Positions 1 to 19,424 of a stretch of DNA of 64,000 nt are shown in pieces. Source of the DNA: an uncultured Verrucomicrobiae bacterium. Lineage in GTDB: Bacteria; Verrucomicrobiota; Verrucomicrobiia; Limisphaerales; Palsa-1400. Numbering within the stretch: the first letter of the stretch is position 1; each line of letters opens with the position of its first letter. The DNA lies in NCBI GenBank assembly GCA_963702845.1, contig OY969763.1, forward strand, positions 3,424,001 through 3,488,000. Direction: 5' to 3'. The position numbers and the translations under genes were made by a program. The notes beneath the pieces are model-generated. The model saw nothing but the letters and a program-made list of their open reading frames with translations. It made no database searches and had not been told where the DNA came from.

Positions 1-805
1 CAATTCCTTTTGGCCGGCTGAAGTGCCCTGACGTGTCGCCATTGCTCCCGAACATCGAAACAAAATTCCCGCTCAGTTCAAAAACCTGCACCCGGCAATT
101 TAGAGAATCAGTCACCAGCCAATGCCCCCGCCCGTCATTGGCAATGTGTGTGGGAAAGTTAAACTCGCCCTGCCCTGTGCCCCGCTTGCCGAACTGAAAC
201 TGCAGCTTGCCTTTCAGATCAAAAACAAAAACCGCATGCGCCTGGGAATCGGCCACTGCAAGCGTGTCACCTGCAACTGCAACACCGGACGGCCGCAACA
301 ACGGTTCGGAAATGGTCCAGATCGATTTGCCGTTTTCCTTAAACGCGATCACTCGCGCCAACTCAGAATCCGCTACATAAAAAATCCCCTTCTCACGCGC
401 GACGGCGACGGGCGACGCAAAACGAACCTTGTCCACCGCCTCATAATTGCGCCACTGCTTCTTGTTCAGATCCACATACGAAATCCGCTTCGCGCCCGTA
501 TCGGTAATGCACAAATTGCCAACGTCATCGATGCAAACGCCAAACGGCTTCTGCAACGCCATTTCCTCATTTTCGTCGCCGGTGATCCAACGTCCAAACC
601 TGGCGAAAGCCGACACCCGCTGACCGATATCGCGTGGATGATTCAAGTTCCGCACGTATTCAATTCGCGCATCGTCCGGTGGGGACGGCCACACGCGCCG
701 TTTCACCACCACCGCAGGTTTCTCCCGCGCACTGGAAAAACTGCATATTCCCAGTACGACCAAAACGACAATAGCAAGCAGGCTGTAATGAACTCTTTTC
801 AACAT
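1..805 (-). CDS. NHL-repeat (6-bladed beta-propeller) protein, exported; runs off the left window edge
   Basis: Not in the ORF track; translated by hand from ATG at 805, adjacent to the stop of the porin gene. MLKRVHYSLLAIVVLVVLGIC..VWPSPPDDARIEY..QKPFGVCIDD..FASPVAVA..FYVADSE..RPSGVAV..GKRGTGQGEFNFPTHIA..LVTDSLNCRVQVF..GHFSRPKGI are NHL repeats. Confidence 0.9.
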   Translation of the reverse strand, partial: MLKRVHYSLLAIVVLVVLGICSFSSAREKPAVVVKRRVWPSPPDDARIEYVRNLNHPRDIGQRVSAFARFGRWITGDENEEMALQKPFGVCIDDVGNLCITDTGAKRISYVDLNKKQWRNYEAVDKVRFASPVAVAREKGIFYVADSELARVIAFKENGKSIWTISEPLLRPSGVAVAGDTLAVADSQAHAVFVFDLKGKLQFQFGKRGTGQGEFNFPTHIANDGRGHWLVTDSLNCRVQVFELSGNFVSMFGSNGDTSGHFSRPKGI

Positions 806-2839
806 TTAGAAAGTCCTCCTCAGTTTGAAGAACACGTAATCGCGCACCTTCGTCTCGCGCAGGTAATCGACATTATCGTGCTCGTAACCCATGTTCATTT
901 GGATCCTGCCCACCATCCAATTCAGATACGAGCGCGCGGCGAACAAGTTCTCGTTGATATTCAAACCGGTTTGATATTGGTAACCAATTTCATTTTTCCA
1001 ACTCAACCTCGGCAGCGGCCGCCAGTCATGACTGAGCATGAAATTGTAAAACGTGGAATGTTGCTTCAATTGCGTCTGAGCCGGCCCGCTCGCGCTGATA
1101 TCATCCGACCATTGTTGGTTGAAATTAATTTCGAGTGTCGAGTTGTCCGTCATATCCATCGAATAGCTCTCCGACAAATTGAAGCTCTTCAGGGTGAAAA
1201 ACGTCGAGTGCTGATCGGTGTAATCCGCAGTCAACACCAGCCTTTTCCACGTGAAATTAGCGCCCGCCTCAAACACATCTTCGTTATCGACAATGACGTC
1301 AGGCGACGACGCGTGATTATCCGTGAAACTGTATCGCGCATAGATCGACGCCATCTCGTTCCAAAAACTCAATCGTAATTGCACCGCATCACTGAAACTC
1401 GTCGAACTCGCCGTCGGATTGATTTGCACCGTGTAAGTCACCTGGATCACCGCGCCGGGTTGAATGTGGCTCGGACCAAACGGATTGATCTGAATCTGCC
1501 ACGGCTCGGAATGAATGACCGTGTAATCCGTCGTGTCAAGCGGCACAGTATTCGAGTCAACGATACTCACGAGCGTCAGCGCGCGCACATGACTCAAACG
1601 CACGATGGTGTTTGCCGGCACAACGTGCGATTCATTCGCAATTAGCAGAATCCCTCCGCTGGTGCTTTGATGATTCAAATTAAAACTCGCGCTATCACTC
1701 AAGGACAGCCGCCCCCAAGAGCCAAGCCGCTTGCTGTAGTCTTCAGTGATGGTGGTGCCTGCTGAAGTGGACTCCGTTGAGTCTGTGCTCGACCCGTTGT
1801 TCGCCCAACTCCCATGCACATCGATCGAGGAGGCAAGGCTTTCGTAGAGTTGATGCCTCAAACCAGCGCTCGCATATCCATACGTCGAATCAAATCCGTC
1901 GCCCGCGTATTGCGAATACGACCCCTGGTAATAGTTGTGCAATCGCTCAGTTAGATCCAAATCATAGTTCACCGCGCCGGTAAAATCATTCACCGACGAC
2001 AGATCGGACTCACGATTCGCTAACCGCAGCGTCGATTTCAAAATGCTTCGCTCAAAATGTTCTGTGTCCTGCACATCCACACGATTGATCGAGCTATCAT
2101 TCGAAATAGTCCTTCCCGTTCCGGTTGCATTCCCGGTCTGAACCGTGCGGTCAAACTCCGTATACTGGTAAGTGAAAAAAGTTGTGTTGTGATTCTGACG
2201 CTCGTTTTGCGCGGAAAGGTCCAGGTCTCGTTGCGTGGTAAGTGCCCTTTGAAACAACTCATCAGCATCCTCATGTGACTCGTTAAACGACAACTGCACT
2301 GGAATTCCTCCTTGCCGATATCCTGTGACAATCCCCCACGTCTCCGAATCAACCGAGGCCATGTTGAAGAACCCATACTGCACCTCATCATGGCCGCGAT
2401 CGAACGTAAACGTCGTTGCATACGGCTTGGCCGAAAGAAACTGGGCGTTAACTTTGCCGTTCACCGTGAACTCGTTGTTATCATTCGGCGCTCCATTCAC
2501 GGACGTGCGCCGCCAGGTGTAGCCGGGCTCAAACAGCGCCGAGTAGGTCAACAAATACGGGTGGTAGATGTAATTGTCCCAACCCACGGCAACTCTTGGC
2601 GAAATGTAATACCGCGTGACCTCCTGGTGGCCGCCGAACTGCGAGTCAAATGTGTCCCGCTGCGCATCCGTGTCCACGAGCATGTATTTGAATTTCGGAA
2701 TCCACCGTGAGTTCGCCTGTTCTTCTTCCCCGATCCAATCGCGATACTCCGCGCGCGCGCCAATCACAGTCACGAACATCCACAACACCATCACAACCTG
2801 TGCGATGGTCGCTGTTATTTTGGATGGTCTTAGGTTCAT
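806..2839 (-). CDS. Large outer-membrane beta-barrel (porin of a porin-cytochrome complex)
   Basis: 677 aa with a signal peptide (..VIGARA), many alternating amphipathic strands rich in Y/F/S/T/N/D and a terminal Phe (..YVFFKLRRTF). Overlaps the multiheme cytochrome gene by 4 bp. Confidence 0.8.
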   Translation of the reverse strand: MNLRPSKITATIAQVVMVLWMFVTVIGARAEYRDWIGEEEQANSRWIPKFKYMLVDTDAQRDTFDSQFGGHQEVTRYYISPRVAVGWDNYIYHPYLLTYSALFEPGYTWRRTSVNGAPNDNNEFTVNGKVNAQFLSAKPYATTFTFDRGHDEVQYGFFNMASVDSETWGIVTGYRQGGIPVQLSFNESHEDADELFQRALTTQRDLDLSAQNERQNHNTTFFTYQYTEFDRTVQTGNATGTGRTISNDSSINRVDVQDTEHFERSILKSTLRLANRESDLSSVNDFTGAVNYDLDLTERLHNYYQGSYSQYAGDGFDSTYGYASAGLRHQLYESLASSIDVHGSWANNGSSTDSTESTSAGTTITEDYSKRLGSWGRLSLSDSASFNLNHQSTSGGILLIANESHVVPANTIVRLSHVRALTLVSIVDSNTVPLDTTDYTVIHSEPWQIQINPFGPSHIQPGAVIQVTYTVQINPTASSTSFSDAVQLRLSFWNEMASIYARYSFTDNHASSPDVIVDNEDVFEAGANFTWKRLVLTADYTDQHSTFFTLKSFNLSESYSMDMTDNSTLEINFNQQWSDDISASGPAQTQLKQHSTFYNFMLSHDWRPLPRLSWKNEIGYQYQTGLNINENLFAARSYLNWMVGRIQMNMGYEHDNVDYLRETKVRDYVFFKLRRTF

Positions 2840-4029
2840 TGTGATTTAGGCAATGCCGTCAGAGCCTTCGACACGGGTTTGAGCAAATGCTTTTGCTCGC
2901 TGAAATGTGGGTTGTGACATTCGACGCACGATTTGCCTTCCGACCCTGCGTGCCCGGCCAACGCCGCCATGTCCTTCTGCTCGTGGCAATCCATACAAAT
3001 CGTCGACCCGGGCTTCGCGAGCATGAACCGCTCATTCGAAGCGTGCGGCGTATGGCACATCATGCATTCGCCGTTTTGAATCGGCGCGTGGACCGACTTG
3101 GCGACCTGAAGCTGACTCTGAAAATCATCGTGACATTGGTAACAGGTGTCGCCCCCTTTGTGCTTGAGAAGTTTTTCATTTTGCGTGGAGTGCGGATTGT
3201 GGCACACGGTGCAGTCGCCCGATTCGACCGGCGCGTGCACAAACTTGGCCGTCTTCGCGAAATCATCGTGACATTTGTAACAGAGTTCTTTGCCGGCGAA
3301 CTTCGTCAGGAACTTGTTCGGCCCGCCGTGCGGCAGATGACATTCCAGGCAACCGTTCATCTCCAGCGCGGCGTGCTTCACCGGCTCTTGCCCGATCTGC
3401 TCATGACATTTCAAACAAAGGGCGTTGCCCGTCCTCAGCAACAACTTCTTATTCGGAGATCTATGTGGATCGTGACACTTCGTGCACTGCCCCATTTCCA
3501 CTGGCTTATGCTTCACCGCAACCGGCATTGCGAAATTCTTCTTGTGACACTGCATGCAAAGCTCCAGTTGCGGCATTTTCAGAACCGGATTCAGGGCCGA
3601 CCCGCCATGGCATTGCCCACACTCCTGTTTTTCGAAGGGCGGATGGAAAACAAAGTTCGATGTCGTGTTCTGAGAAAAACGAAATGCCGAAAGCACCGAA
3701 GGCCTCTTTCTCGTTGAATCTCTCCTGGGACCAGTTTTGGTTACCTTGTTTGTGACACCCTCATCAGGAACTCCATCGAACAGAAACTTCAGGATTTTGT
3801 GCTTTTTCGATTCAGCCTTGGTCGGCGTTGCATTCGTGGATTGAACTGCCGCGGGCACGGCGTTTGTGGATTGAGCCTTGGACACGTCTGGTTTCGCCGT
3901 TTCAACCGCCTTGCTCGCGATCACACCACCGCAAAGAACGGCCGCCACAGCCACGACAACCAACAGGCTTCTACTGAGGGGATTCACTCTCTCACTCACT
4001 GGCGGATGTTCTTTGGGAGCGACGTTCAC
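2836..4029 (-). CDS. Multiheme c-type cytochrome, 11 CxxCH motifs (paired-CXXCH/cytochrome c3-like repeats)
   Basis: CGQCH, CMQCH, CTKCH, CLKCH, CLECH, CYKCH, CTVCH, CYQCH, CMMCH, CMDCH and CVECH in a repeating H-x-P..CxxCHxPH..L..LCxxCH unit; hydrophobic N-terminal signal/anchor. Confidence 0.95.
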   Translation of the reverse strand: MNVAPKEHPPVSERVNPLSRSLLVVVAVAAVLCGGVIASKAVETAKPDVSKAQSTNAVPAAVQSTNATPTKAESKKHKILKFLFDGVPDEGVTNKVTKTGPRRDSTRKRPSVLSAFRFSQNTTSNFVFHPPFEKQECGQCHGGSALNPVLKMPQLELCMQCHKKNFAMPVAVKHKPVEMGQCTKCHDPHRSPNKKLLLRTGNALCLKCHEQIGQEPVKHAALEMNGCLECHLPHGGPNKFLTKFAGKELCYKCHDDFAKTAKFVHAPVESGDCTVCHNPHSTQNEKLLKHKGGDTCYQCHDDFQSQLQVAKSVHAPIQNGECMMCHTPHASNERFMLAKPGSTICMDCHEQKDMAALAGHAGSEGKSCVECHNPHFSEQKHLLKPVSKALTALPKSQ

Positions 4030-5163
4030 TTCTTGTGACCGAAGCCGTACACGGCAACCTTGTGCGGTCCCAGTTGGTTGATGACGATCACCAGGTGCTC
4101 AACAACGAAATTTGGCGAAGTGTACTTTTTGAAATACTCAACGTCCTCGTAATCGACGGCGACTTTCGTCGGCAGGATTTGGATGCGCGGTCCTTCACCT
4201 GGATCACCAAAGAACGTCAGCAGCTTTCCTTCATCGTTAAAAATCTGGATGACCTGTGACATCGCGTCCGCCGCATAAATCTGGTGCGCGCGATCGACCG
4301 CGATTCCTTTCAGGCGAGCGAACATGCCGAGCCCATCACCCATTTCGCCAACCGTCCGAATATGCTTCCCGTCCGGCTGATAAATTTGAACGTGTCCAGC
4401 GCCCGTATCGCTGACATACAGTCGGCCCTGATCGTCTATCGCGAGATTGCCAGGTGTAAACAAGCCCGTGATCTCGTTCGTTGCAGCCGCTCCGTTAACG
4501 AGGTTCGTCACGTAATTGCGCGACGCCTTCTCATAAATACGAACGTTGTGCGATTGCACGTCCGCCACATAAATCCGATCAGCGCCAATCGCGACATCGC
4601 GCGGTTTCATCTCACCCGTCTTGCCGATGGTGCCGGCGTAAGCGCCCTGTTTATCAAAAACAACAACCTGCTCGCGCGTGCTGTCAGCGACGTAAGCCGT
4701 GCCATCGGTTTTATCGATTGCGATGTTCAACGGCGTTCGCAACGCACCTTCGCCTGTCGCCTCAAGCATCCCGATCTTCTGCTCCTTCAGGTCCACCACC
4801 AACACCGTGCCCAGCGCCGTGTCGCAAACGAAAATCTTATGGTCGTACGTCAGTCACTCCATAGGGCTTGCTTATTTCCTTCGTGGCCTCCTGCTGGCCA
4901 GTAATGAACGATTTGAAACTGTGGCTCTTTTTTTGGCGAAATGATTTCTCCGAAGCAAACCCTGTCAGATACTGCAAACGCGGCGCATCCGGCGGCGCCG
5001 GATAGAAAATATCTGTGCGCTGGTTCGCCGGGGGTTTTTCAGCTCCCTTCTTCTCGCTCTTGCCGAGCGCTGAAGCAGCACCACTGGTCAAAAAGCCAGT
5101 GATCATCGTTGCGAACACGACTCCCAGAACTGTTTGTTGAAACGTGTGTTGGAGGTTCTTCAT
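4026..5163 (-). CDS. NHL-repeat beta-propeller protein (split by one frameshift near 4850)
   Basis: ORF 4837..5298 (likely start MKNLQHTF at 5163; signal peptide; FYPAPPDAPRLQY..KPYGV) continues in the frame of ORF 4026..4805 (..KIFVCDT..AYVADS..KPRDVAI..IYVADV..LYVSDTG..FARLKGIAVD). Confidence 0.85.
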
Positions 5164-5425: not shown

Positions 5426-5459
5426 AAAAAACAGGGCCACATGTTTCCATGTGACCCTG
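5426..5459 (-). terminator. Rho-independent terminator downstream of the tetraheme cytochrome gene
   Basis: Minus strand reads CAGGGTCACATG-GAAA-CATGTGGCCCTG-TTTTTT: a 12-bp stem (one G-U pair), GAAA tetraloop and U-tract. Confidence 0.85.
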
Positions 5460-5491: not shown

Positions 5492-6283
5492 TTACTTATC
5501 GTGGCACGTCAAACACAGCTGGCCACCTTGAAGGGGAACCATCAGCGCATGGTCGTATTGAATTGTGCCGGAAGAACCGATCGTTTCATGAATGTCATGG
5601 CACGAGGCGCATTCCATCGTACGGGTACCAGCGGGTCCCTTAATCATGTGCGAGATCATCGTTCCATTAACGACAGGTTTCAGCTGAGGATCCGCTGCCA
5701 CTGCCTGGTCGTAATTGACGCCGAGCGGGTGCATGTGGGTCAGGTCTGTGCTGCCACCAACCGTCTCAACAGCAAAACTTGGAGCAAAGACGTTCGTCGT
5801 CACTGTTCCGTCACCGTTGAATGTGGTTTTGCCATAAGCCTGGTTGATACCGATTGAGCCGTCATGGCAGCTCAAGCAGGCAGCCGACGATCCCAACGAA
5901 GTGATCGCACCGAGACCAAGCGCGTTAAACGTGGCCGATCCGCCTTGATCATACGTCATATAACGGGTGGTCGCGTTGCTCGCCGCATTGTGGTTCCACA
6001 ACGGCGCATTCACAGCGCTGTAAGACGGGGCTTTGTGCGGAATGTGGCATACCTGGCAGGGATTTTCATAATACGCGGCTGCATTGACGCTGCCGTTTGC
6101 ATTGGTCTTAACTCCACCACCCCATGCAAACTTGGCGGCTTGTACCTGGCTGAGCGCACCAGCTCCTCCTGTGGAACTGAAGTCGTGCACGCTACCTATG
6201 ATAGTCGCACTTACAGTCGTCGCCGATAAGGCAACTACTGCTCCCAGGGCTAAGCCTGCGAGGATTGTTTTTGGTGTTGTCAT
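5492..6283 (-). CDS. Secreted tetraheme c-type cytochrome, OmcE-like
   Basis: Signal peptide (..TTVSA) followed by HDFSS, CQVCHIPH, PLWNH, CLSCHDG, DLTHMHP, ECASCHDIH and QLCLTCHDK-stop. Motif order matches my recollection of Geobacter OmcE. Confidence 0.85.
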   Translation of the reverse strand: MTTPKTILAGLALGAVVALSATTVSATIIGSVHDFSSTGGAGALSQVQAAKFAWGGGVKTNANGSVNAAAYYENPCQVCHIPHKAPSYSAVNAPLWNHNAASNATTRYMTYDQGGSATFNALGLGAITSLGSSAACLSCHDGSIGINQAYGKTTFNGDGTVTTNVFAPSFAVETVGGSTDLTHMHPLGVNYDQAVAADPQLKPVVNGTMISHMIKGPAGTRTMECASCHDIHETIGSSGTIQYDHALMVPLQGGQLCLTCHDK

Positions 6284-6428: not shown

Positions 6429-7550
6429 TCATGCTGCGCATGGAACTGCTCCGTACACCGGAACAGCCCGTTCTGATTGCCTGGGCGCTTTCACTGGCTT
6501 GCCCACCGGTCCAGTCAATTTCTCCATCAATTCAATCGTGTGCTGCTCGACGATCGCACGGCACGTCTCGATCTCCTGCTGGCGCAGACGAACGTTCTCC
6601 TTCACGATTTGTTCCAGATCATCGATGTCGTAGAGGAACACGTTCTCGAGTTCCTGCACGTTGGGATCGATGTCGCGCGGCACGGCGATGTCGATTAAAA
6701 CCAGAGGACGATTGCGTCGCGTTTGCATGACTGCGGCGACATCATCGCGGTCGAGCACCGTCTCAGGGCACCCGGTCGAACTGACGACAATGTCGGCATT
6801 GCGCATCTCAGCGATGCCATCGTCCATGAAATTCACTGCGCGCGCGCCGAACTCGTCGGCCAACTTTTGTGCGCGTTCCATCGAGCGGTTTGCCACGATG
6901 ACCGATTTGATGCCCTTCTTGGCCAGATGCCGCACACACGCTTCTCCCATTTTACCTGCGCCAACGATCATCACCGTTTTATCGGCCAGCGCGGTTCCGA
7001 AAATCTTTTCAGCAAGTTGAAGCGCGACACTACCGACTGACGTAGCGCCGCGCTGAATTTGGGTTTTGCTCCGGATCGCTTTGGCGGTCTGCAGGGCCTT
7101 TTGAAACATCCGGTTGGTAACAGAGCCCGTCAGTTTAACTTGATACGCTTTTTCGTAAGCACCTTTGACCTGACCGGCGATTTCCGTTTCGCCAAGAACC
7201 ATCGAGTCGAGTCCGCTCACCACAGAAAATAAATGCCGCGCCGCGCCGTCGTTCTCGTGCGCATATATATAGGGCGTCACATCAAAGCCGCCGCGCGCCA
7301 CCGAATTCAGAACGGTTTCAGCCGTGCCACGATCCGGCGCAACGCCATAAATTTCCACGCGATTGCAAGTGGACAAAACGACCACTTCGCTGAGACCCTT
7401 TTTCACCTTCAGTTGGCACCCTGTGCAGGCGAGGGCATGTTGCGAAATCGCCATCTTTTCGCGCACTTCAACTGGTGCCGTTTTGAAGCTGATACCGGCG
7501 ACAAAGGGAACGCTGGTCTGATTTGTTGTTCTAATGAAATTCATATTCAT
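6429..7550 (-). CDS. hemA: Glutamyl-tRNA reductase
   Basis: TAPVEVRE, LSTCNRVEIY (catalytic Cys), SGLDSMVLGETEIAGQVK, GAGKMG NADPH-binding motif and DIAVPRDID. C-terminus is short. Confidence 0.97.
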   Translation of the reverse strand: MNMNFIRTTNQTSVPFVAGISFKTAPVEVREKMAISQHALACTGCQLKVKKGLSEVVVLSTCNRVEIYGVAPDRGTAETVLNSVARGGFDVTPYIYAHENDGAARHLFSVVSGLDSMVLGETEIAGQVKGAYEKAYQVKLTGSVTNRMFQKALQTAKAIRSKTQIQRGATSVGSVALQLAEKIFGTALADKTVMIVGAGKMGEACVRHLAKKGIKSVIVANRSMERAQKLADEFGARAVNFMDDGIAEMRNADIVVSSTGCPETVLDRDDVAAVMQTRRNRPLVLIDIAVPRDIDPNVQELENVFLYDIDDLEQIVKENVRLRQQEIETCRAIVEQHTIELMEKLTGPVGKPVKAPRQSERAVPVYGAVPCAA

Positions 7551-7900: not shown

Positions 7901-8233
7901 ATGAAACTTTCAGACTTGTGGCACATCGCGAAAGAAGCAGTCACCTCGACTGGTAGCGCGTATCGCTCTGCGACCTCCGTGACGCTGGCCTGTTCAAGTC
8001 CAGCCACCTACCCGCTCAGCCGTGTCAAAGCCGGCGCTGAAGTTCGCATCAAAGAACTCTCCACCCCTGAAGATGTTTCAAAGCGCCTGCGCGAAATCGG
8101 CTTCTGCGAACAACAAGTCCTGAAACTATTGGTAAGCCAATCCAGCCTGATCTGTTTAGTCTGCAACGCGCGAGTTGCTCTCAGTTCAGATATCGCCGGG
8201 ATGATTATGGTAGAACCGGTCCGCCCCAACTAA
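7901..8233 (+). CDS. feoA: FeoA-family (SH3-like) ferrous iron transport protein A
   Basis: PLSRVKAGAEVRIKEL..KRLREIGF..LICLVCNARVALS..IMVEP is the typical FeoA pattern. No adjacent feoB. Confidence 0.85.
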   Translation: MKLSDLWHIAKEAVTSTGSAYRSATSVTLACSSPATYPLSRVKAGAEVRIKELSTPEDVSKRLREIGFCEQQVLKLLVSQSSLICLVCNARVALSSDIAGMIMVEPVRPN

Positions 8234-10415: not shown

Positions 10416-12839
10416 TTATGCTCTGACGCGCGATTGAAGTTGGACTTGAGCGAGCACTCGGGCCTGAACTTGACTATACAAACGCTGACACCGTCCGGTG
10501 GTATCTTCTAACCGGACCGCAAGCCCTAATGGAACCGACGTCGTGTCTTTACACCATGATGCGGCAGACAGTGAAACGGCCAAAATGTAGTCATTCGCGC
10601 TGAACTCTGATTCGTGATCGTGCCACTCAAAAACATCACGCTGCAGAGTGCCGACAGAGCGCCTCTGAATTTTCAGCTTTCCGGGAAGATGATCAACTTG
10701 CACATCAGACGTTAAGTTTTCCTCATCATCGTTGCGTTGCATCATTGAAACAATCTGGTCAGTAGGCTTATCCCCTCGAAACAATCGGAATTTCAATCGT
10801 GCACCGAGATACTCAGCGACACCCCACTGTTGCACCGGTGGAGCACTCGCGACGGCTATGGTTATCCTTTTCAACCCATTTTCTGAATCGCGGATTTCTA
10901 CAGGCACAGGAATCCGAAACAATCCCACTCTATCAACTAAGATTGCACCGTCGTAGAACAGGATGACAGAATGCGGTGCACAATCGGTCGCGCGACTCGC
11001 AATCGGCAACCCATACCCAACGCATTTTAGCAAATCTTCCGCTCTCGCAAAAACAGGATCTGTCGGCGCTTCGGCTGACAACGCCAAAAACGCACGAAGA
11101 AGGGGTGCTGAGGGTTGAGCGATTAGTGGCCGCAAATCCCGAACGATAGATGCTAATTGGTTTGCGACCCGCGGGCCAGCGTAGCTGTTACCGTTCCCAT
11201 GTTGAAGTGGAGGAGTTAACTTGTTACTCGCCATTACAACGTTGGTTCCAGCATTGGAGGCGACCCGCTGTTGAGGATCGCGAACAAGATTTCCGCCTCG
11301 TTCTACAAAGTCTGGTTTGACTGCTTGGCCGAACCCAGGACCTGTCCGCGTAAATGGTGAGGGCTGGTTTTCTCGTGCAATTGGGACCGATGGCGCAACG
11401 ATCACCCTTTCAGAGGGCGCAAGCGACCCGACGGTAACAGCTAACGCCGCTTGTCCAGGATCAAGGATTTTCGCGAGCGCCTGGCGCAAGTACAATGGAT
11501 ATTGCTGATTAGCAGAGAGGTCTTCGACATCAGCGGGAGAGAGGTTGCCTGTAATTGCGACGAACACGACATCGAAGTCTCGCGAAAGCTGGTCCACCGT
11601 CCGCGCCACCCATGAATTGCGGGGCACAAGGTTGCCTCCGGCTTGATTCCAAATGTGCCCGACAATGCTAAACGAAAGCACGAAGATGCGGACCCCATTC
11701 GGACGGAAGTGAGCAACTACATCCCTGAGGATTCTCGATAGGAGTCGGGCTTCCCGTAAACGCTGGACGCCATCGTCATCAATGTACGGGGTGTCCAGCT
11801 CTCCTGCATCGTTGGTTATGCGGGCGGATGCGACGAATGCAGATGCCGAGTTGGCAGACCCGTGGCTCATGTCAATTTGATAGTACGCCGCTAACGACGC
11901 TACGCCTGACCCGTGTCCCACGCCATCTGCATCAGGAGCAAAACCATCAATAAAACTGTGTGATATTTGCGTGCGTAGTACAGGTTGCAGAAATGGGTTA
12001 GCACCGGCTACACCGGTATCGATGACGCAAATCGTCTCGGCATCATCGGGCGGCGTGCTCAGCGTGGTGTTCGAGACCGAAAAGCTCTGGTAAACCGTCT
12101 CAAACGTTTCGAAATGTGGTCGCTTCTCAAACAAAACGATTTGACGCCACCACCGCGGATCCTCAACAAGCGCCTTCAACTTCTCACCTGTGCTGGATAA
12201 GACAGCTCTTGCACCAACACCGGCAAAGTCCGTTTCGTAAATTCGGCCGTCGATTGCGCCGAGAAACTCACGCAGTTCCGTTAAGCTACGCTCCACCTCG
12301 CGACGACGTGTCTCTAATCGCGTTGCAAAGCTTGCCACCTCTATTTCGTAAACAACGAATTCTTGGTGAATAAGTGATTCATAGTCGGCTGCAAATTCCG
12401 GCGACAACCGAGCTTTAGGATCAGCAACTGCAATCGATGAAATGCGGGTGACAAACTCAACTCCCGTTGGCCGTTCAGAAACAGTGTCAGCCGCGATTTT
12501 GCCAAGACGTTCTTCCAGCGTCTCTAAACTTTTTTTCTTCGGTACGACCAAAGTCTCGGTCGAAGTCGAAGGGCCCATCGGCATAAGACCGGTTCCACGA
12601 AGGTCCAATTTTGTCAGCGGTCTATCATGCGTCAGTTTAAGAAATGCCGCTCGCCTCTGCTCAGGTGTAAGTTGACGCACAACTGTCGCAATTTCTCGAA
12701 GTTCCGTTCGAAGGGTGTGACATTTTGTGGTCCTTTCCGAAACGGCAACGGGTGGCAACCTAGGAAATGGTAACCTTTCGCGCCTACGGGCGCTTATATG
12801 AGGTTGAGAGATTTGAATTGGCGGGTATTCGCTATTCAT
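10416..12839 (-). CDS. S8 (subtilisin-like) serine peptidase, IetS/Y4bN-like
   Basis: Triad motifs VIDTG, GHGSGVAS and GNSYAGP; SPFTRTGPG..KPDFVERGGN; VGYGLP. No signal peptide; 4-bp overlap with the upstream ATPase. Confidence 0.9.
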   Translation of the reverse strand: MNSEYPPIQISQPHISARRRERLPFPRLPPVAVSERTTKCHTLRTELREIATVVRQLTPEQRRAAFLKLTHDRPLTKLDLRGTGLMPMGPSTSTETLVVPKKKSLETLEERLGKIAADTVSERPTGVEFVTRISSIAVADPKARLSPEFAADYESLIHQEFVVYEIEVASFATRLETRRREVERSLTELREFLGAIDGRIYETDFAGVGARAVLSSTGEKLKALVEDPRWWRQIVLFEKRPHFETFETVYQSFSVSNTTLSTPPDDAETICVIDTGVAGANPFLQPVLRTQISHSFIDGFAPDADGVGHGSGVASLAAYYQIDMSHGSANSASAFVASARITNDAGELDTPYIDDDGVQRLREARLLSRILRDVVAHFRPNGVRIFVLSFSIVGHIWNQAGGNLVPRNSWVARTVDQLSRDFDVVFVAITGNLSPADVEDLSANQQYPLYLRQALAKILDPGQAALAVTVGSLAPSERVIVAPSVPIARENQPSPFTRTGPGFGQAVKPDFVERGGNLVRDPQQRVASNAGTNVVMASNKLTPPLQHGNGNSYAGPRVANQLASIVRDLRPLIAQPSAPLLRAFLALSAEAPTDPVFARAEDLLKCVGYGLPIASRATDCAPHSVILFYDGAILVDRVGLFRIPVPVEIRDSENGLKRITIAVASAPPVQQWGVAEYLGARLKFRLFRGDKPTDQIVSMMQRNDDEENLTSDVQVDHLPGKLKIQRRSVGTLQRDVFEWHDHESEFSANDYILAVSLSAASWCKDTTSVPLGLAVRLEDTTGRCQRLYSQVQARVLAQVQLQSRVRA

Positions 12840-13855
12840 GAAGCTCGTGAGCCCGAACGAGACGCAGCATGCAGTTTTTTACGCCATGCGTGACACTCCT
12901 TCACAATTTCATCCACGGGAGTAATAGAAGTGCGCTCAAGGAGTTTGGTTTTGGCAACCTCTCTTACGGCGCGATCAATTTCTGCATATGAATAGCTTTT
13001 TAACTTCCGGGCAGCGCCGACCAAATCTCCTTGAACACGGAGGCCGCCGGTTAAAAACCGAAGTTGTGCCGCGCGTTCCGGTTCGCCCGGAAGGGGGAAT
13101 TCGATAACGTCGTCAAATCGCCGCCAAATCGCTGGGTCAAATGTCTGCGAATGGTTGCTGGCCAAAATCACCAGGCTATGTTTCGGTGAGAAATAGTCCA
13201 AAGCCTGTAACAAGGAGTTCACAACACGCCGCAGCTCTCCAACGTCATTACGATCTCCTCGTGCCTTCGCAACTGCATCTGCTTCATCGATCAGGAGCAC
13301 CATCGGTCTACCTTCTGCGACGGCAAATACTTTCTGCAAATTCGAAGCTGTTTCGCCAACATAGCTGGTTATTAGACTACTTAACCGAACCACGCCGCAT
13401 GGAATGCCGAGATCACTCGCTATTAGACGCGCAGCTGCGGACTTCCCACATCCAGGAGGACCCCAGAACAACAACCTTCGTTTCGGCTGCAGTCCACCCT
13501 GCTCAAGCTGGTGAACCGCTCGATATTCTAAAGCTATGCGATCTAGCGAGCTCTGAGTATCGCGACTGAAAAACAGTTGCTCACGACGAAGTCCTTCGGG
13601 TACGAATGTGACCAACGAATCAGCCTGCCGCGTTAAAACCTGAACTGTTGCGGGAACCGAGTTGCCGTTTCGTTTTATTTGAGTCAATGCCTCTCGTAGA
13701 GCTTTTGCTTCGCTCGGGCGGTTGCTCATACTCAACTCACGGACGATGGTTTCGGCATTTCGAGAGAACCCAGTCTCATCGTGCATCGCATGCGCGAGCA
13801 CGAGCTTGCGGATGCAATCAAAAATCTCAGGAATCGGCATCGTCGGTTTCAGCAT
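12836..13855 (-). CDS. AAA+ ATPase, IetA-like partner of the S8 peptidase
   Basis: Walker A GPPGCGKS, SYVGETASNL, Walker B LLIDEAD, DVGELRRVVNSLLQ and DPAIWRRFD. Confidence 0.92.
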   Translation of the reverse strand: MLKPTMPIPEIFDCIRKLVLAHAMHDETGFSRNAETIVRELSMSNRPSEAKALREALTQIKRNGNSVPATVQVLTRQADSLVTFVPEGLRREQLFFSRDTQSSLDRIALEYRAVHQLEQGGLQPKRRLLFWGPPGCGKSAAARLIASDLGIPCGVVRLSSLITSYVGETASNLQKVFAVAEGRPMVLLIDEADAVAKARGDRNDVGELRRVVNSLLQALDYFSPKHSLVILASNHSQTFDPAIWRRFDDVIEFPLPGEPERAAQLRFLTGGLRVQGDLVGAARKLKSYSYAEIDRAVREVAKTKLLERTSITPVDEIVKECHAWRKKLHAASRSGSRAS

Positions 13856-14232
13856 ACGGACTTTATCTTACAGCTACAAGCCGAGCGTATTCTGATGAAA
13901 AACAGCGTTCAAGGACGTTACGCATCATTTTGTTTCGTTGTTACGCCGTACCGTAAGCCCGAATCATGCAAGCCACTTTCTGTTTTTCAAGCTGCCGCGC
14001 GCGCCTTTGCTTTGACGAAGTCACATACGGTCACCCAAAAAAAAGTTTTTAAAAACGACCTCGAATCGCAGAAAAGTCCACGCCCGCTTACGTTTTGCTC
14101 CATTTTGCACTGCAAAAAACCACGCATTTTCGCGCCATTTTTTGCACGTTCACCATCGTCCTTGCCAGTTTACTCTCTGCAGCTCGCTATTTCCGTTGTA
14201 GCTCCAGGGCGGTTTCGCTAAAACTATCCCTA

Positions 14233-15494
14233 ATGCCCTCATCCGTCGCCGAAACCACCGCGCCCACGACCGCCGTCGCGTCTAATCGCGAAAAATGGCT
14301 CGTGCTCGCCGCTGCCTTTTTCGGCTGGATGTTCGACGGACTTGAACAAGCCGTTTTCCCACTCGCCGGTCGCCCTGCCTTGCAGGACCTCTTGCACACC
14401 CAAAACGACGCCATCATCGGCCAATACTTCGGTTACATCACTGCCTTGTTTTTAATCGGTGCTGCCCTCGGCGGCTTCGTCTTCGGCTGGCTCGGGGACC
14501 GCTTCGGCCGCGTTCGCACAATGACTTGGAGCATCCTCACCTACTCCATCTTCACCGGGCTCTGCTACTTCGCGAACAGTCCGTACCAACTCGGCGCGCT
14601 CCGTTTCATTTCCGCCATCGGCATGGGCGGCGAATGGGCTCTCGGCGTCGCGCTCGTCATGGAATTCTGGCCTGAAAAAGCGCGCCCACTTCTCGCCGGC
14701 GCAATCGGTGCAGCTTCCAACGCCGGATATGCCTTGATTTCCTTCCCGGAATGTTCATCAAAATCGACCAAACCTCCTGGCGCTGGGTCATGCTCGCAGG
14801 CGCGGCGCCGTCCTTGCTCAGCTTGCTAATCGCGTATCTTCGTCCCCGAATCCGACGTTGGAAAGCCGCCGTCGAAACAGCCAAACCCATCCCGTCCGCG
14901 AAGTATTCTCACGCGCAATGTTGCGTCGGACCCTCCTTGGAATTGCCATTGCCGCCATTGCTCTGATCGGCACATGGGGCTCCGTGCAATGGATCCCGAC
15001 ATGGGTCAACAAAATGGTCGGGCATCAAAACCCACACGCCGCACCCACTTCACTCCTCTTCGCAGCCATTGGCGCGATGATCGGATGCTTTGTCGGTTCC
15101 CTGCTGGCCGAGCATTCGGCCGCCGCTGGACCTACTTCCCCTCTGCCTCGCATCGTGGATCATCACCACAACCCTATTCCGCAGCTTCGATCATTACAGC
15201 CTCTGCTTCGCCGTTAATGTTCGGCCTCGTCGGCCTGTTCACCGCCGCATTCTACGGCTGGTTGCCGCTCTATTTCCCGAACTCTTCCCCACCCGCATGC
15301 GCGCCACCGGCCAAGGCATGTGCTTCAATTTCGGTCGCATCTTCGCCGCCGCTGGCGTCTTTTCAAGGCAACTCGTCACCGCCTACAACGGCAGCTACCC
15401 ACACGCCGGCACGATGGTCGTGCTCGTTTACTTCGCCGGCATGGTCGTCATCTGGTTCGGCCCCGAAACAAAAGGCAAACCTCTGCCGGACTAA
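14233..15494 (+). CDS. MFS transporter (several frameshifts, probably sequencing errors)
   Basis: GWMFDGLE, GWLGDRFGRVR (motif A), GMGGEW, PELFPTRMRATGQG..FNFGR and GPETKGKPLPD, spread across 4-5 overlapping ORFs. Confidence 0.85.
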
Positions 15495-15596
15495 TCGAAA
15501 CGAATCCTCTTTCCAAAAACTTGGTGTCTTGGTGCCCTGGTGGTTAAAACGTTTCTATTTGAATTTTCTGCGGCACGGGGTTTACTTCCCGCTTCG

Positions 15597-16653
15597 ATGA
15601 AAACGAAAGCCTACGCCTCTGCCGGTGTTGACATTGATTTGGGCAACCGAGTCAAAAGCACATTCCCGCAGCCTACTCGCTTCCACCCATCGTCCTGAAG
15701 TCCTCGGCAAAGTCGGCGGCTTCGGCGGCCTGTTCGCTTTCGACACCAAAAAATATCGCCAACCCGTTCTCGTCTCCAGCGCCGACGGCGTCGGCACGAA
15801 ACTCAAAATCGCGTTCGCGATGAACAAGCACGACACCGTCGGCGCCGACCTCGTCAATCATTGCGTCAACGACATCGCCGTCCTCGGCGCTGAACCCCTG
15901 TTCTTCCTCGACTACATCGGCACCGGCAAATTGAAGCCCAAAGTTTTCCAGCAACTCATCACCGGTTTCGCTCGCGCCTGCGCCAAAACAATTGCGCCCT
16001 CATCGGCGGCGAAACCGCCCAAATGCCCGGCTTCTATCAGGAAGGCGAATACGACGTCAGCGGCACCATCGTTGGCGTGGTTGAAAAATCAACAATGCTC
16101 GATGGCAAAACCATCAAACCTGGCGACACCATTATCGGCATCGCCTCGAGCGGCCTGCACACAAACGGCTATTCGCTCGCGCGCAAAATCCTCTTCGAAA
16201 AACTGAAGCTCAAGCCCACTTCACGGTTGCCCGGCATTCGCAATTCCGTCGGCAAAGAACTGCTCAATGTTCACGTCAGTTACGGCCCGCTCGTGCAGAA
16301 GTTGCTGAAACAATTTAATCGTGGCAACAACAGACCGCGTCATCAAAGGCCTCGCTCACATCACTGGCGGCGGCTTCATCGACAACATTCCGCGCGTGCT
16401 GCCAAAAACCTGCGACGTCCTCATTCAAAAAGGTTCCTGGCCTGTCCTGCCGATTTTTCAACTACTCCGCGACAAAGGCGGCGTCGACGAACAGGAATTG
16501 TATCAAGTGTTCAACATGGGCATCGGCATGACAGCTATCGTCGCGACTGAAAAATCGAAGCCGTCCTCAAATCCATCCACGCTCAAAAACACAAAGCCTG
16601 GATCATCGGCAAGTGTCTGTCGCGGTCGGGGAGTTGTAAGATTGTCTAGTTAA
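15597..16653 (+). CDS. purM: Phosphoribosylformylglycinamidine cyclo-ligase (frameshifted)
   Basis: [65 protein letters not shown] and FNMGIGM across several frames. Confidence 0.93.
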
Positions 16654-19424
16654 TCGCGCCAGTGTTCCGGCAGGACTGCCGTGCGCGGGAATGTGCAAAT
16701 CACGTTCGTGCCACGTGGCGCATTCGGTTTGATCTCAAATTGCCCACCCGCTGCTCGTGCGCGATATTCCATGATTCGCAAGCCCATCCCGCCACCCGTG
16801 AGCACGTGCGACGAATCATTGACTACAGTCGGTGCCGGCGGCGGCAACCGAAAACCTTTTCCGTCATCGCTAATACTGAAATTCACTTCGCTCCCGTCCA
16901 CCGCAAGTTCCACCCGGATTCTCTTCGCTGCCCCGTGATTCACCGCGTTATGAATTGCCTCCTGCGCGATACGATAGAGCGCGAGCGCTGCTTCCGGCCG
17001 CAACGGCAAGTGCGTTTGATTGCACTCAAAATGGCAATCCACATCGAACATGTTCTCCGACATATCGGCCAGCGTTGAAAGCGCCGAAATCACTCCGCGC
17101 CCTTCCAACTCAATCGGCTGCAATCCATGAGCAAGACGTCGCGTTTGGCTTAGCGCCTCGCGCATCAAGGCACTCAGCGTTTTTACGTCGTCCTTGCGAT
17201 CGCTTGGAATCGCGCCATTCGACGCCTCCAGTGCGACCTCCAGCGCCTTCACCTTAAAAGCCACGCCCGCGAGGAACTGCCCGAGCCCATCATGCAATTC
17301 ATGACCGATGCGTTGCCGCTCCATCGCCGCAATTTCCAACATCTGCCGTTCCAGATTTTTTTGTTCGGTGATGTTTTCGATCATCGAAATGACATACCGA
17401 ATTTTCTCATCCGCTCCGCGCACCGCCGAAGTCGTCAACATCGTTGACACCACCGTTCCGATCCTTTCGCACGTACCGGATTTCATTGCGATAAGTATCT
17501 ACATGCCCCTGGATCAACGCTTCGAACATCTCACGTTCGCCAACCACATCATCAGCATGGGTCACTGCCGCCGAACTGCCGAACGCCTGCAGTTCCGCTC
17601 CTTGTAGCCGGTGATATTCTCGTAAGCCAAATTGATCTGCAAATAACGACCATCGACATGATGCAAAGCGATGCCAATCGGCGAGGATTGAAACAGGCTG
17701 CGAAACCGCTCTTCGCTCTCCCGCAAAATTGCTTCGGCACGATACCGTTCAGTCATGTCACGCCCGATACCCATCAAACCAATTAGCTCACCATCGCTGT
17801 TCCTGACTTCAGAAGTGCTCAAAAAAATTGGAAACTCGCTACCATCCTTGCGCACGTCCCAAACTTCCCCCACCCAACCGCCCTTGTGCGTTTGCTCCAC
17901 AATCGCCTCTGCCAACCCGGGTGGATTACGTGGCGAATGAAGCATCGAACTGTGTCTCCCAAGGATCTCGTCACGCGTGTAACCCGTAGACAATTCAAAA
18001 GCGTGATTGGCGAAAATCACCTTGTTATTTAAGTCCGTGATACTGATCGGTTCCGTACTGCTTTCGACGGCGTGACCCAATGCCGCCAGCTTTTCATCGA
18101 GTTGCTTTTCCTCGGTAATATCCTCAGCAAGACCAACGATACGATACGGTTTACCGTCCTGGTCCTTCACCGGAAACGCGCGATCGCGAATCCAGCGCAT
18201 CGTTCCATCTGGACGCAAAATTCGATAAACCTGGTTGTATTCTCCAACCTCCTGCTTTTCGAACGCCGCGTTCAACGTGCGCTCTTTGTCGTCCGGATGA
18301 AGGGCATCCACCCAATCCTGCGGTCGTTCATACAAGCTCTTGCACGACCGGCCCCAAATGATTTCGTATCCCGGGCTGACGTAAAGCATTTGCTGTTTCG
18401 TCAGGTCCGTCATCCAAAGCACTTCCTTGATGTTCTCCGCAAGTTGCCGGAACCGTTCTTCACTCTCACGCAGCCCCGCGTTCGCCAATTCAAGTTCGCT
18501 CGTGCGCGCCCGGACACGCGATTCCAATTCCTCATTCGCCTGCAGCAATGCAAATTCCGCTTGCTCTTGCCGACGCCCGATTCGACGCGCCACCAGCGAA
18601 ACAACCAGCGTGACAAATAAAGCCGAAACAAGCGTCTGAAATGCGTCGCGAACTACCGGGTTCAAATTTTTGTAGGCGCGAAACCAGTGCGACAAACATC
18701 CGTCCATGAACACGACAAGAAACGTGATCGGCAAGAATGCTCGCAAAAGCTGTGCGCTCGAGGATCGTCCCGTTAACGCACGCATCGGCAGATATTCAGG
18801 TCCAGCAGCAGCAACCAGCCCGACACTCAAAGCAACGAAAGCAATCGTCGTCGACAGCGCGACCGGGCCCAGCGGACTGTTTCGCTTTCCGCCATAGAGC
18901 AACGGCGTCCCGTAAAGATATCCAAGCAATACGACACACGAGCCAATCAACACAATCGTGGCAAGCGGCGGCACCAGCGATTTAAGTCGAATCCCCTTGC
19001 GCAACAGCAAGACCAACCCGATACCGCACAGAATCAGTCCCGCTCCTGAAATGCGCGAAATCCCGACAAACGGGCGGATATTATAGTCGTAACCATTGAA
19101 CGGAATCGACTGTGGCACAACCTTAACACCGAAGAACAACGGCAGCAGGTCATACCCGCCGAGCAACCCGATCAAGATGCAGAGTGGAATCGCGCCACTC
19201 CTCGCCTTCGTCCAATTTGTTTGCGTCAACAGCAGAGCGGCGCCGAAAGCAATCAGATAAGCCGCAAGATGCGGTGACATCGAAGCGTACTTGGTCTGAA
19301 AAGACGAAAGAAGGAGATTGCCAGTCGCTTTAGCAACGATGCCTAAAACGCCAAACAAAATAACCACGAATCCACAAATCCTCGCCGTCCGTACACAACG
19401 AACATTTAAAGGATTATAGTGCAT
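16650..19424 (-). CDS. Membrane-bound multi-PAS sensor histidine kinase (HisKA_3/NarX-like; frameshifted near 17450-17600)
   Basis: About 7 TM helices; three PAS/PAC segments (WVDALHPDD..WIRDRAFP; RKDGSEFPI); ERQRIGHELHDGLGQ, EAIHNAVNH, DDGKGF and GMGLRIM. Confidence 0.88.

What the first reader, a model, noticed from the sequence alone, without database searches (positions are those of the whole stretch)
5492..6283. Tetraheme cytochrome with the full OmcE nanowire motif layout
Seen: signal peptide, then HDFSS, CQVCHIPH, PLWNH, CLSCHDG, TDLTHMHP, ECASCHDIH and LCLTCHDK at the extreme C-terminus. That gives 4 CxxCH motifs plus extra His residues placed as distal ligands. From memory, G. sulfurreducens OmcE has HDLS, CVFCHTPH, PLWN, CMSCHDG, DLSNDHP, ECGSCHKVH and LCLGCH in the same order. 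Inference: a self-polymerising extracellular cytochrome filament subunit. The Gly/Ala-rich insert after HDFSS (GGAGALSQVQAAKFAWGGGVK) appears lineage-specific.
Basis: partly seen in the sequence, partly recalled or inferred. Interest (0 to 1): 0.88.

Follow-up and report, generated by a model that had tools for sequence, protein, structure and literature searches.

The report
OmcE-type nanowire subunit with candidate anchor
This gene encodes a four-heme protein related to the solved OmcE cytochrome nanowires of Geobacter and Desulfuromonas, in a genome that is likely verrucomicrobial; it likely stacks into an electron-carrying filament, and an eleven-heme neighbour that begins with the same module is predicted to cap one end and would be the filament's anchor.

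Summary
Observation confirmed. The 263-aa ORF (5492-6283, minus strand) has every motif named. Its only significant PDB matches are the two solved OmcE filaments (9YUQ E 7e-19, 7TFS E 1e-8), and the match survives masking of the CxxCH motifs. All eight heme histidines are invariant in 77 aligned sequences.

It is an OmcE-family member but not the omcE orthologue. Its operon (tetraheme, NHL, 11-heme, barrel, NHL, undecaheme) has the uet-type layout, which differs from the two loci encoding the solved wires. The host is Limisphaerales-like Verrucomicrobiota, a phylum missing from the published OmcE range. The cluster itself probably equals one already described as a porin-cytochrome conduit (EET4).

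New points: (1) a strong, conserved terminator follows the gene, as expected for an abundant structural subunit; (2) the operon's undecaheme begins with a whole OmcE module and then copies a subunit N-terminus in cis, the anchor design the OmcE authors looked for; (3) a complex model docks it on the tetraheme's heme-4 end (0.71, best control 0.00; possibly recalled from 7TFS).

Filament formation is inferred, not shown. The insert is real but sits in a hypervariable loop.

The parts
5492..6283 (-). OmcE-family tetraheme cytochrome c, 263 aa (P0001); predicted filament subunit
6206..6283 (-). Probable Sec signal peptide, residues 1-26, no lipobox
   Evidence: sequence, hydropathy, aligns with leaders of 7TFS and 9YUQ in the profile alignment; no predictor run
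6059..6184 (-).
5432..5459 (-). Intrinsic-terminator-like hairpin (12-pair stem, U-run) 33 bases after the stop codon
   Evidence: z -5.46, 0 of 200 shuffles; conserved after related tetraheme genes
6429..7550 (-). hemA, glutamyl-tRNA reductase (heme supply), directly upstream; same position in related Verrucomicrobiota loci
   Evidence: (TIGR01035 over cut-off)
4026..5163 (-). NHL beta-propeller 1; reading frame split by one extra base near 4851 (likely assembly error)
   Evidence: intact in G003; relatives' contigs lack the base
2836..4029 (-). 11-heme paired-CXXCH cytochrome, 397 aa (MtrA/DmsE-like, below the family cut-off)
806..2839 (-). 677-aa probable outer-membrane beta-barrel ending in Phe; uet-type, not omcE-operon-type
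   Evidence: no Pfam, NCBIfam or PDB hit; nearest named Atlas clusters are porins at 0.85-0.89, leads only
1..805 (-). NHL beta-propeller 2 (342 aa; runs off the window to G000:C1:3423777). Next gene, outside the window, is the 574-aa undecaheme (G000:C1:3422049-3423773)

Best explanation
The gene encodes an OmcE-family four-heme cytochrome that is likely secreted and likely polymerises head-to-tail into an insulated heme wire, each subunit's C-terminal heme 4 predicted to take its sixth ligand from His83 of the next subunit. Shown: the sequence, the eight conserved heme histidines, homology to both solved OmcE filaments, the operon and the terminator. Inferred: hemA supplies heme; the terminator makes the tetraheme far more abundant than the downstream parts; two NHL propellers and the 677-aa barrel assemble and export it. 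The 574-aa undecaheme, which starts with a full OmcE module and satisfies its own heme 4 in cis, would cap the filament's heme-4 end and anchor it at the barrel. [quoted passage not shown] The direction of flow is not tested.
For: Only PDB matches at E<0.001 are 9YUQ and 7TFS; 33% and 26% identity, against 41% between the two solved proteins (bioRxiv 10.1101/2025.10.22.684050). H33, H83, H185, H232 and all four CxxCH are invariant in 77 of 77 aligned tetrahemes (rows were picked by a pattern that demands these motifs) and in 73 of 73 close homologues picked by similarity alone. 86 of 97 tetrahemes from fetched loci end CxxCHxK-stop, leaving no residue after heme 4. Metagenomic protein P0129 holds four whole modules fused head-to-tail. 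Terminator-like hairpin after 12 of 24 hemA-linked tetraheme genes and 25 of 59 others, 0 of 28 undecaheme genes, 1 of 72 shuffles. The undecaheme's first 212 residues match 7TFS at E 5e-29; 37 of 37 long homologues have a His 10-14 residues after heme 4 followed by CxxCHxxH; in three Acidobacteriota loci the gene is split at that junction into two signal-peptide proteins. Complex model, tetraheme with undecaheme residues 1-290 (mature numbering) and four hemes: score 0.71, best of 3 controls 0.00; this mark was reached by 116 of 157 solved complexes and 2 of 215 mismatched pairs; runs agree in at least 80% of contacts, partner pLDDT at least 79; the interface joins C257, L258, K263 and H183-H185 of the tetraheme to the first CxxCHxxH of the partner. 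Quinol-side genes lie in the same 22-kb stretch. The genome has two cytochrome c assembly (PF01578) matches.
Against: No filament has been solved for this operon type: the two loci encoding the solved wires have another layout, a barrel that this one does not match pairwise, and no undecaheme within the 20 kb fetched. In the tree the query does not join the solved-OmcE clade; its grouping with the uet-type tetraheme is weak (SH-aLRT 84). The heme-free model is mediocre (pLDDT 63) and its match to 7TFS is weak (Foldseek E 0.007, TM 0.22; Z 4.6 over 70 residues). The complex pass may be recalled from 7TFS (released 2022), the calibration holds only roughly for this job, and it fits a 1:1 dimer equally well. 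NHL1 is frameshifted in this assembly. One of the two PF01578 matches has two internal TGA. Whether cytochrome filaments carry long-range current in vivo is disputed (PMC11077965, abstract).
Confidence: 0.62

Rival explanations
1. The tetraheme does not form long filaments. It is a terminal module of a porin-cytochrome conduit, docking 1:1 or as a short oligomer on the undecaheme's OmcE module to extend an Mtr-like trans-membrane wire. This is how the uet, PCC and EET4 papers read such clusters.
For: The complex model is of a heterodimer. Operon layout is that of porin-cytochrome clusters. No filament structure exists for this operon type among PDB matches.
Against: The subunit carries both halves of the interface (a free CxxCHxxH His and a bare C-terminal heme), so nothing stops further addition. 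A terminator right after the gene, absent after undecaheme genes, points to excess subunit. Several loci carry two to four tetraheme paralogues in tandem, and four-module fusions exist.
Confidence: 0.22
2. It forms filaments, but their job is not respiratory export: electron uptake from reduced minerals or humics as proposed for Uet, electron storage, or cell adhesion and bundling, with the long Gly/Ala/Asn loop as a surface contact.
For: Gene order matches the uet cluster of electrode-oxidising Tenderiales. OmcE bundles use variable surface loops. A triple filament mutant still reduced Fe(III) oxide (PMC11077965 abstract).
Against: hemA and several quinol-interacting membrane cytochromes are linked. 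Two Limisphaera isolates reduce ferrihydrite (PMC13608581), though I did not test whether they hold this cluster. Related clusters are transcribed in anoxic peat, if EET4 is this cluster.
Confidence: 0.1
3. The cluster is decaying in this genome: the NHL1 frameshift is real and the wire is no longer assembled.
For: One extra base near window 4851 splits NHL1. The cluster is patchy among kin: 7 of 60 relatives.
Against: All other cluster genes are whole. purM at 15625-16550 is also frameshifted, pointing to indel errors in a single-contig assembly. Contigs about 93% alike from one sample lack the base and G003 has the intact gene; these are relatives, not this strain.
Confidence: 0.06

Closest known systems
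OmcE nanowire, Desulfuromonas soudanensis (PDB 9YUQ; bioRxiv 10.1101/2025.10.22.684050, mBio PMC13712944)
   Same: Best PDB match (E 6.7e-19; 33% over 206 columns); four CxxCH, four distal His, PLWN, CLSCHDG, D-x-x-x-x-HP, C-terminal CxxCHxK; barrel and propeller genes nearby.
   Different: Its locus (L089) runs 23-heme, NHL, 8-heme, NHL, omcE, 776-aa frame, with no undecaheme in 20 kb; first loop 18 residues against 43; different phylum. The paper lists five phyla, not Verrucomicrobiota.
OmcE nanowire, Geobacter sulfurreducens (PDB 7TFS)
   Same: E 9.5e-9, 26% identity over the whole length; the only fold hit in both structure searches; same motif order.
   Different: Its locus (L087) runs 9-heme, 8-heme, NHL, omcE, 756-aa frame, no undecaheme. 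The same genome (G100) holds a second cluster (L088) with the window's layout, whose tetraheme has no solved structure.
uet cluster of Tenderiales and Gallionella (UetA tetraheme, UetC barrel, UetH/I NHL, UetJ undecaheme; bioRxiv 10.1101/2022.05.06.490989, PMC10734462)
   Same: Tetraheme first, barrel, two NHL proteins, undecaheme last. Gammaproteobacterial loci L063 and L074 show the published ten-gene order with an OmcE-module tetraheme first, and L023 shows the first nine, so UetA is likely an OmcE-family protein (by gene order; accessions not checked).
   Different: Here one 11-heme cytochrome replaces the three trihemes; no peptidylprolyl isomerase-, cupredoxin- or ccsAB-sized genes in those positions; hemA leads; quinol-side genes follow.
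EET4 cluster of peat Limisphaerales (bioRxiv 10.64898/2026.05.27.727921) and verrucomicrobial porin-MHC clusters (PMC5615132)
   Same: Porin plus multiheme cytochromes in Verrucomicrobiota; the EET figure legend names OmcE-like and OwcA-like cytochromes of 8-13 hemes; transcribed in peat.
   Different: Both read the clusters as Mtr-like conduits; 'nanowire' does not occur in either main text. No tetraheme filament or anchor is proposed in the parts read. Identity with this cluster is probable for EET4, uncertain for the 2017 cluster, and unverified (supplements not seen).

Membership tests
OmcE-family tetraheme cytochromes | Four CxxCH motifs and four further conserved His | tested here: met
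   C76/79, C136/139, C225/228, C257/260; H33, H83, H185, H232 invariant; definition
OmcE-family tetraheme cytochromes | Significant full-length similarity to solved OmcE beyond the CxxCH motifs | tested here: met
   masked-motif test
OmcE-family tetraheme cytochromes | Large outer-membrane beta-barrel and beta-propeller genes nearby (filter used by the 9YUQ paper) | tested here: met
   Two NHL genes; 677-aa protein is barrel-like by C-terminal Phe, Atlas leads and weak profile match to omcE-locus barrels, not by a curated family
OmcE-family tetraheme cytochromes | OmcE fold | tested here: inconclusive
   7TFS is the only hit in both searches but weak; model lacks hemes, pLDDT 63
OmcE-family tetraheme cytochromes | One interfacial heme ligated by a His of the adjacent subunit | tested here: inconclusive
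   Heterodimer model places the partner's CxxCHxxH His at the heme-4 end; ligation itself is not reported, homodimer not modelled, 7TFS paper not held
OmcE-family tetraheme cytochromes | Micrometre extracellular filament | not testable with these tools
   needs cryo-EM
omcE orthologues in the strict sense (operon of the solved wires) | Order multiheme, 8-heme, NHL, omcE, about 750-aa barrel; no undecaheme | tested here: not met
   query outside the clade of the solved proteins. Not filed as an orthologue
uet cluster | Tetraheme, barrel, two NHL proteins and undecaheme in one cluster | tested here: met
uet cluster | Three c7 trihemes, isomerase, cupredoxin and ccsAB in the cluster | tested here: not met
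   No such genes between tetraheme and undecaheme or right after. Works like uet; not filed as uet proper
EET4 of Limisphaerales | Sequence and synteny match to the published representative | not testable with these tools
   Gene-level detail lies in figures and supplements not available
OmcS hexaheme nanowires | Six hemes and similarity to OmcS | tested here: not met
   Four CxxCH; no OmcS chain among PDB matches up to E 10

The most novel reading that the evidence does not exclude
uet-type clusters, found here in at least ten phyla and in about one in eight sampled genomes of this verrucomicrobial order, are self-contained nanowire factories. The OmcE-like tetraheme is the filament. The undecaheme is its missing anchor, an OmcE module fused to a covalent continuation of the heme chain that plugs into the barrel. 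UetA of electrode-oxidising bacteria is then a nanowire subunit too, and polysaccharide-degrading Verrucomicrobiota wire themselves to humics or minerals.
Probability: 0.42. Interest if true: 0.86.

Novelty: new variant of a known kind. Interest (0 to 1): 0.66.

Why it matters
How cytochrome nanowires start, stop and attach to the cell is open. The authors of the second OmcE structure looked for an anchor with an OmcE fold and a spare histidine and found none in the operon. This operon type encodes a protein of that design next to the subunit, and cultured organisms carry related loci (the second cluster of G100; Sulfurimonas sp. CS5, L061; Aromatoleum toluolicum T, L064, where the undecaheme was not seen within the stretch fetched), so the idea can be tested by cryo-EM and knock-outs. 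It would also extend OmcE-type wires to Verrucomicrobiota and recast clusters now drawn as short conduits (uet, probably EET4) as long-range wires, which bears on humic and iron respiration in anoxic soils and peat. The protein family itself is known and large (2,552 representatives at E up to 1e-10).

Tried and rejected
AlphaFold2 of the undecaheme gave pLDDT 43 and was not used. Foldseek found no match at E up to 0.001 and did not list 9YUQ. The barrel profile matched no PDB sequence at E up to 1; the omcE-locus and uet-type barrel profiles match only weakly (probability 66%). No RNA holder was listed; the eight DNA runs hold small shares, so no habitat is claimed. No earlier findings of this scan were returned. 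The 2022 OmcE structure paper is not held, so the inter-subunit His of 7TFS could not be read; the mBio supplement was unreadable. Pattern searches for Ccs/CcmF, cydA, narG, hydrogenases, nifH and EF-Tu found nothing; the EF-Tu miss and the PF01578 hits show the patterns are unreliable, so no absence is claimed. The terminator scan as a whole is at chance level (12 found, 10.4 expected); only the one site is argued. The careful tree did not finish, so quick trees were used; deep branches are unresolved and no transfer or root is claimed. Rejected: that the insert marks a new sub-family function (hypervariable loop); that the gene is the strict omcE orthologue; that the cluster is a recent import (GC and GC3 like its neighbours and the 54% genome; same order in kin). 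A table lists GSU3218-GSU3233 cytochromes as up-regulated with hematite and magnetite (PMC4070692); their link to L088 rests on recalled locus tags, not on a call, and is not used as evidence. Three rows whose titles say Bifidobacteriaceae (L004, L010, L014) share the verrucomicrobial gene order, and the two in the tree fall among Verrucomicrobiota; they were treated as doubtful labels.

Full report
1. The observation. It has four CxxCH and twelve His. phmmer against 177,635 PDB sequences returned nine rows up to E 10; two lie below 0.001: 9YUQ (6.7e-19) and 7TFS, OmcE (9.5e-9). A profile of 73 homologues gives 1.1e-26 and 1.9e-14. Pairwise identity is 33% to the 9YUQ protein and 26% to the 7TFS protein. 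The similarity is not only the heme motifs: with CxxCH masked, 0 of 500 shuffles reached the score against 9YUQ and 1 of 500 against 7TFS; with all His masked too, 0 and 12 of 500. Pfam and NCBIfam give only generic paired-CXXCH hits.

2. Conservation and family. The four distal candidates H33, H83, H185 and H232 are invariant in 73 close homologues (73 rows: the query and 72 of the 120 listed) and in 77 diverse tetrahemes (the query and 76 of 97 found by a motif pattern). The family is large: 2,267 hits among 8,000 candidates and 2,552 representatives at E up to 1e-10. Of 97 tetrahemes in fetched loci, 86 end CxxCHxK-stop. The insert is real, but it is a long form of a hypervariable loop.

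3. Fold. The heme-free AlphaFold2 model has pLDDT 63. 7TFS is the only hit in Foldseek (E 0.007, TM 0.22) and the only chain with Z of 2 or more among 48,161 (Z 4.6, rmsd 2.9, 70 residues). This is specific but weak.

4. Host. RecA is 85-87% identical to three Verrucomicrobiota genomes (one titled subdivision 3, one Limisphaerales), 63% to an Opitutae and 59% to a Desulfuromonadales genome. The closest loci are Verrucomicrobiota. The cluster is patchy: 7 of 60 relatives match the tetraheme profile and 24 of 200 genomes of the order match the undecaheme profile at E up to 1e-30; in a sample of the class of G063 (record title Desulfuromonadales) 75 of 121 match the tetraheme profile.

5. The operon. 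On the minus strand: hemA, the tetraheme, NHL1, an 11-heme cytochrome, a 677-aa barrel-like protein, NHL2, and beyond the window a 574-aa undecaheme, a 235-aa unknown, a 9-heme cytochrome, two monohemes, a NapC/NirT-type membrane cytochrome, a tetraheme, a 4Fe-4S protein, an NrfD/DsrP-type protein and two cytochrome c + cytochrome b fusions. Eight of the genome's 36 frames with two or more CxxCH lie in this 22 kb. The core order hemA to undecaheme recurs in L004-L009, L011, L025, L083 and L084. NHL1 carries one extra base near 4851; it is whole in G003 and relatives' contigs lack the base, and purM is also split, so an assembly error is likely but not shown.

6. Not the strict omcE operon. The loci that encode the solved proteins (L087, matching 7TFS at E 6e-155; L089, identified with 9YUQ by its printed sequence) run multiheme, 8-heme, NHL, omcE, about 750-aa barrel, with no undecaheme in the 20 kb fetched. 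The window's order occurs instead as a second cluster in G100 (L088) and in L093. The window's barrel matches those two barrels (E 1e-9, 7e-7) and none of six omcE-locus barrels. Across 96 loci, the uet-type barrel profile hit 39, of which 30 also hold the undecaheme's C-terminal part; none of the 7 omcE-type loci does (the profiles were built from these loci, and several of the 9 exceptions are cut by contig or locus ends). In a quick tree of 63 modules the six omcE-type rows form one side of a branch (87), the 16 long modules another (91), and the query joins neither. The gene order equals the published uet cluster in outline, and L063 and L074 show the full uet order with an OmcE-module tetraheme first.

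7. Signs of a polymer. (a) The subunit has both halves of an interface: a bare C-terminal heme and an N-terminal CxxCHxxH. OmcE filaments have one interfacial heme ligated from the next subunit (PMC9473688, PMC12954529). (b) A 12-pair hairpin with a U-run sits 33 bases after the stop (z -5.46). By my own thresholds such a hairpin follows 12 of 24 hemA-linked tetraheme genes, 25 of 59 other tetraheme genes, 0 of 28 undecaheme genes and 1 of 72 shuffles; 11 of the 12 misses have a further 7-9-heme gene directly behind. Kin are not independent. (c) P0129 holds four whole modules fused in one chain.

8. A candidate anchor. The undecaheme's first 212 residues match 7TFS at E 5e-29, better than the query does. 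In 37 of 37 long homologues a His follows heme 4 by 10-14 residues and the next heme is CxxCHxxH, which copies the start of a subunit; in P0129 the His of module 2 lies 10 residues after heme 4 of module 1. In three Acidobacteriota loci the gene is split at this point and the second half has its own leader. The 9YUQ authors write that an ideal anchor would resemble OmcE and carry an extra His, found a candidate only outside the cluster, and saw no tip candidate in OmcE operons; this agrees with L087 and L089 lacking the gene. A complex model of the mature tetraheme with residues 1-290 of the mature undecaheme and four hemes scored 0.71, best of 3 controls 0.00; the mark was reached by 116 of 157 solved complexes and 2 of 215 mismatched pairs; runs agree in at least 80% of contacts, partner pLDDT at least 79. 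The interface joins C257, L258, K263, G253-G254 and H183-H185 to the partner's first CxxCHxxH, the polarity expected beforehand from sequence. The pass may come from memory of 7TFS, the counts hold only roughly with own alignments and ligands, and it does not distinguish a filament cap from a 1:1 dimer. Whether the protein is base or tip is inferred; I favour base because it is encoded beside the barrel.

9. Mechanism. Most likely (0.62): a secreted subunit of an insulated heme filament, made in excess, assembled by two propellers and a barrel, capped by the undecaheme and fed from the quinone pool. Rivals: a short conduit module (0.22); a filament used for uptake, storage or adhesion (0.10); a decaying cluster (0.06).

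10. Literature and novelty. The 9YUQ paper lists OmcE homologues in five phyla, without Verrucomicrobiota (preprint parts 1-4 of 7 read; mBio version passages, no 'Verrucomicrob' in the main text; supplement not readable, and it may list such homologues). Porin-multiheme clusters of Verrucomicrobia were noted in 2017 and said to lack Geobacter homologues (PMC5615132, passages). A 2026 preprint describes a transcribed Limisphaerales cluster, EET4, names OmcE-like cytochromes of 8-13 hemes in a legend covering four clusters, and models Mtr-like conduits (parts 1-5 of 8 and passages; supplements not seen); it is probably this cluster. The uet preprint speculates that UetA or UetJ might polymerise, without naming OmcE (passages); PMC10734462 passages. 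Limisphaera isolates reduce ferrihydrite (PMC13608581, passages). Against a wire role in vivo: PMC11077965 (abstract) and PMC13194489 (passages). PMC4070692 (one table passage) and the ProPrep preprint (passages) were also seen. Searches for OmcE + nanowire + Verrucomicrobi (5 papers), UetA + OmcE (1 review, listing only) and searches showed no paper that calls this tetraheme a filament subunit or the undecaheme its anchor; the library lacks most subscription papers. Gene labels such as MtrA-like and DsrP-like come; reading the c + b fusions as quinol oxidases is recalled knowledge.

11. Verdict. A real OmcE-family tetraheme in a uet-type operon of a verrucomicrobial genome: a new variant of a known kind. 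The family and probably the cluster are known; the filament reading is likely but untested for this operon type, and the in-operon anchor candidate is the part worth following up. Interest 0.66.

Noticed in passing
L001:4098-18773 (G000:C1:3409098-3423773, just outside the window): Rest of the cluster: undecaheme, 235-aa protein without Pfam or NCBIfam hit, 9-heme, two monohemes, NapC/NirT-type membrane cytochrome, tetraheme, 4Fe-4S protein, NrfD/DsrP-type protein and two multiheme c + cytochrome b fusions.
   Followed up: partly
L001:8610-10355: The NrfD/DsrP-type membrane protein carries an inserted cyclic-nucleotide-binding domain (PF00027, E 2e-17, residues 301-381); a possible regulatory link into the quinol step. 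The G003 counterpart is of like length (566 aa).
   Followed up: no
P0129 (1400 aa), P0136 (1450 aa): Natural fusions of OmcE modules: four whole modules head-to-tail in P0129, followed by non-heme surface domains; two whole modules and parts in P0136.
   Followed up: partly
L052:14290-16217, L056:14289-16216, L060:13422-16225: In three Acidobacteriota loci the undecaheme is split into a tetraheme module and a separate signal-peptide heptaheme at the module junction.
   Followed up: partly
L013, L014, L018, L021, L042, L043, L046, L055, L057, L058, L066: A verrucomicrobial sub-group has an extra 7-9-heme cytochrome (670-1110 aa; PKD domains in the three scanned) right after the tetraheme and no terminator between them.
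   Followed up: partly
L063, L074, L023: Gammaproteobacterial loci with the published uet gene order whose first gene is an OmcE-module tetraheme, suggesting UetA belongs to the OmcE family.
   Followed up: partly
L088 (G100:C1:3532120-3543828): Second OmcE-like cluster of the window's type in the genome that encodes the 7TFS protein; a ready test system.
   Followed up: partly
L090:1638-9641; L053:12617-15904; L073:16817-20005: Very large multiheme frames next to OmcE-like genes: 57 CxxCH in 2667 aa; 42 CxxCH in about 1060-1095 aa.
   Followed up: no
window 15625-16550, 14095-15600, 17562-19424: purM is frameshifted (checked); an MFS transporter and a PAS sensor also look broken or cut, suggesting indel errors in this assembly.
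   Followed up: partly
window 10416-13855: Adjacent genes for an AAA-type ATPase (339 aa) and a subtilisin-like protein (807 aa), judged by eye from the translations; resembles ATPase-protease defence or toxin-antitoxin pairs (recalled, not searched).
   Followed up: no
window 7901-8233: FeoA-domain gene divergent from hemA (PF04023), also seen by DNA match in G012; possible iron supply or regulation for the cluster.
   Followed up: no
G000 genome-wide: 44 frames match a pilin-like N-terminal pattern; single matches to NosZ, cbb3 and aa3 oxidase patterns (patterns recalled, unverified).
   Followed up: no
window 37001-57875: Several very long minus-strand ORFs (2185, 1200, 1662 and 1428 aa), not examined.
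   Followed up: no
L004, L010, L014: Records titled Bifidobacteriaceae carry the verrucomicrobial cluster with a beta-barrel gene (L004, L014); probably mislabelled.
   Followed up: no
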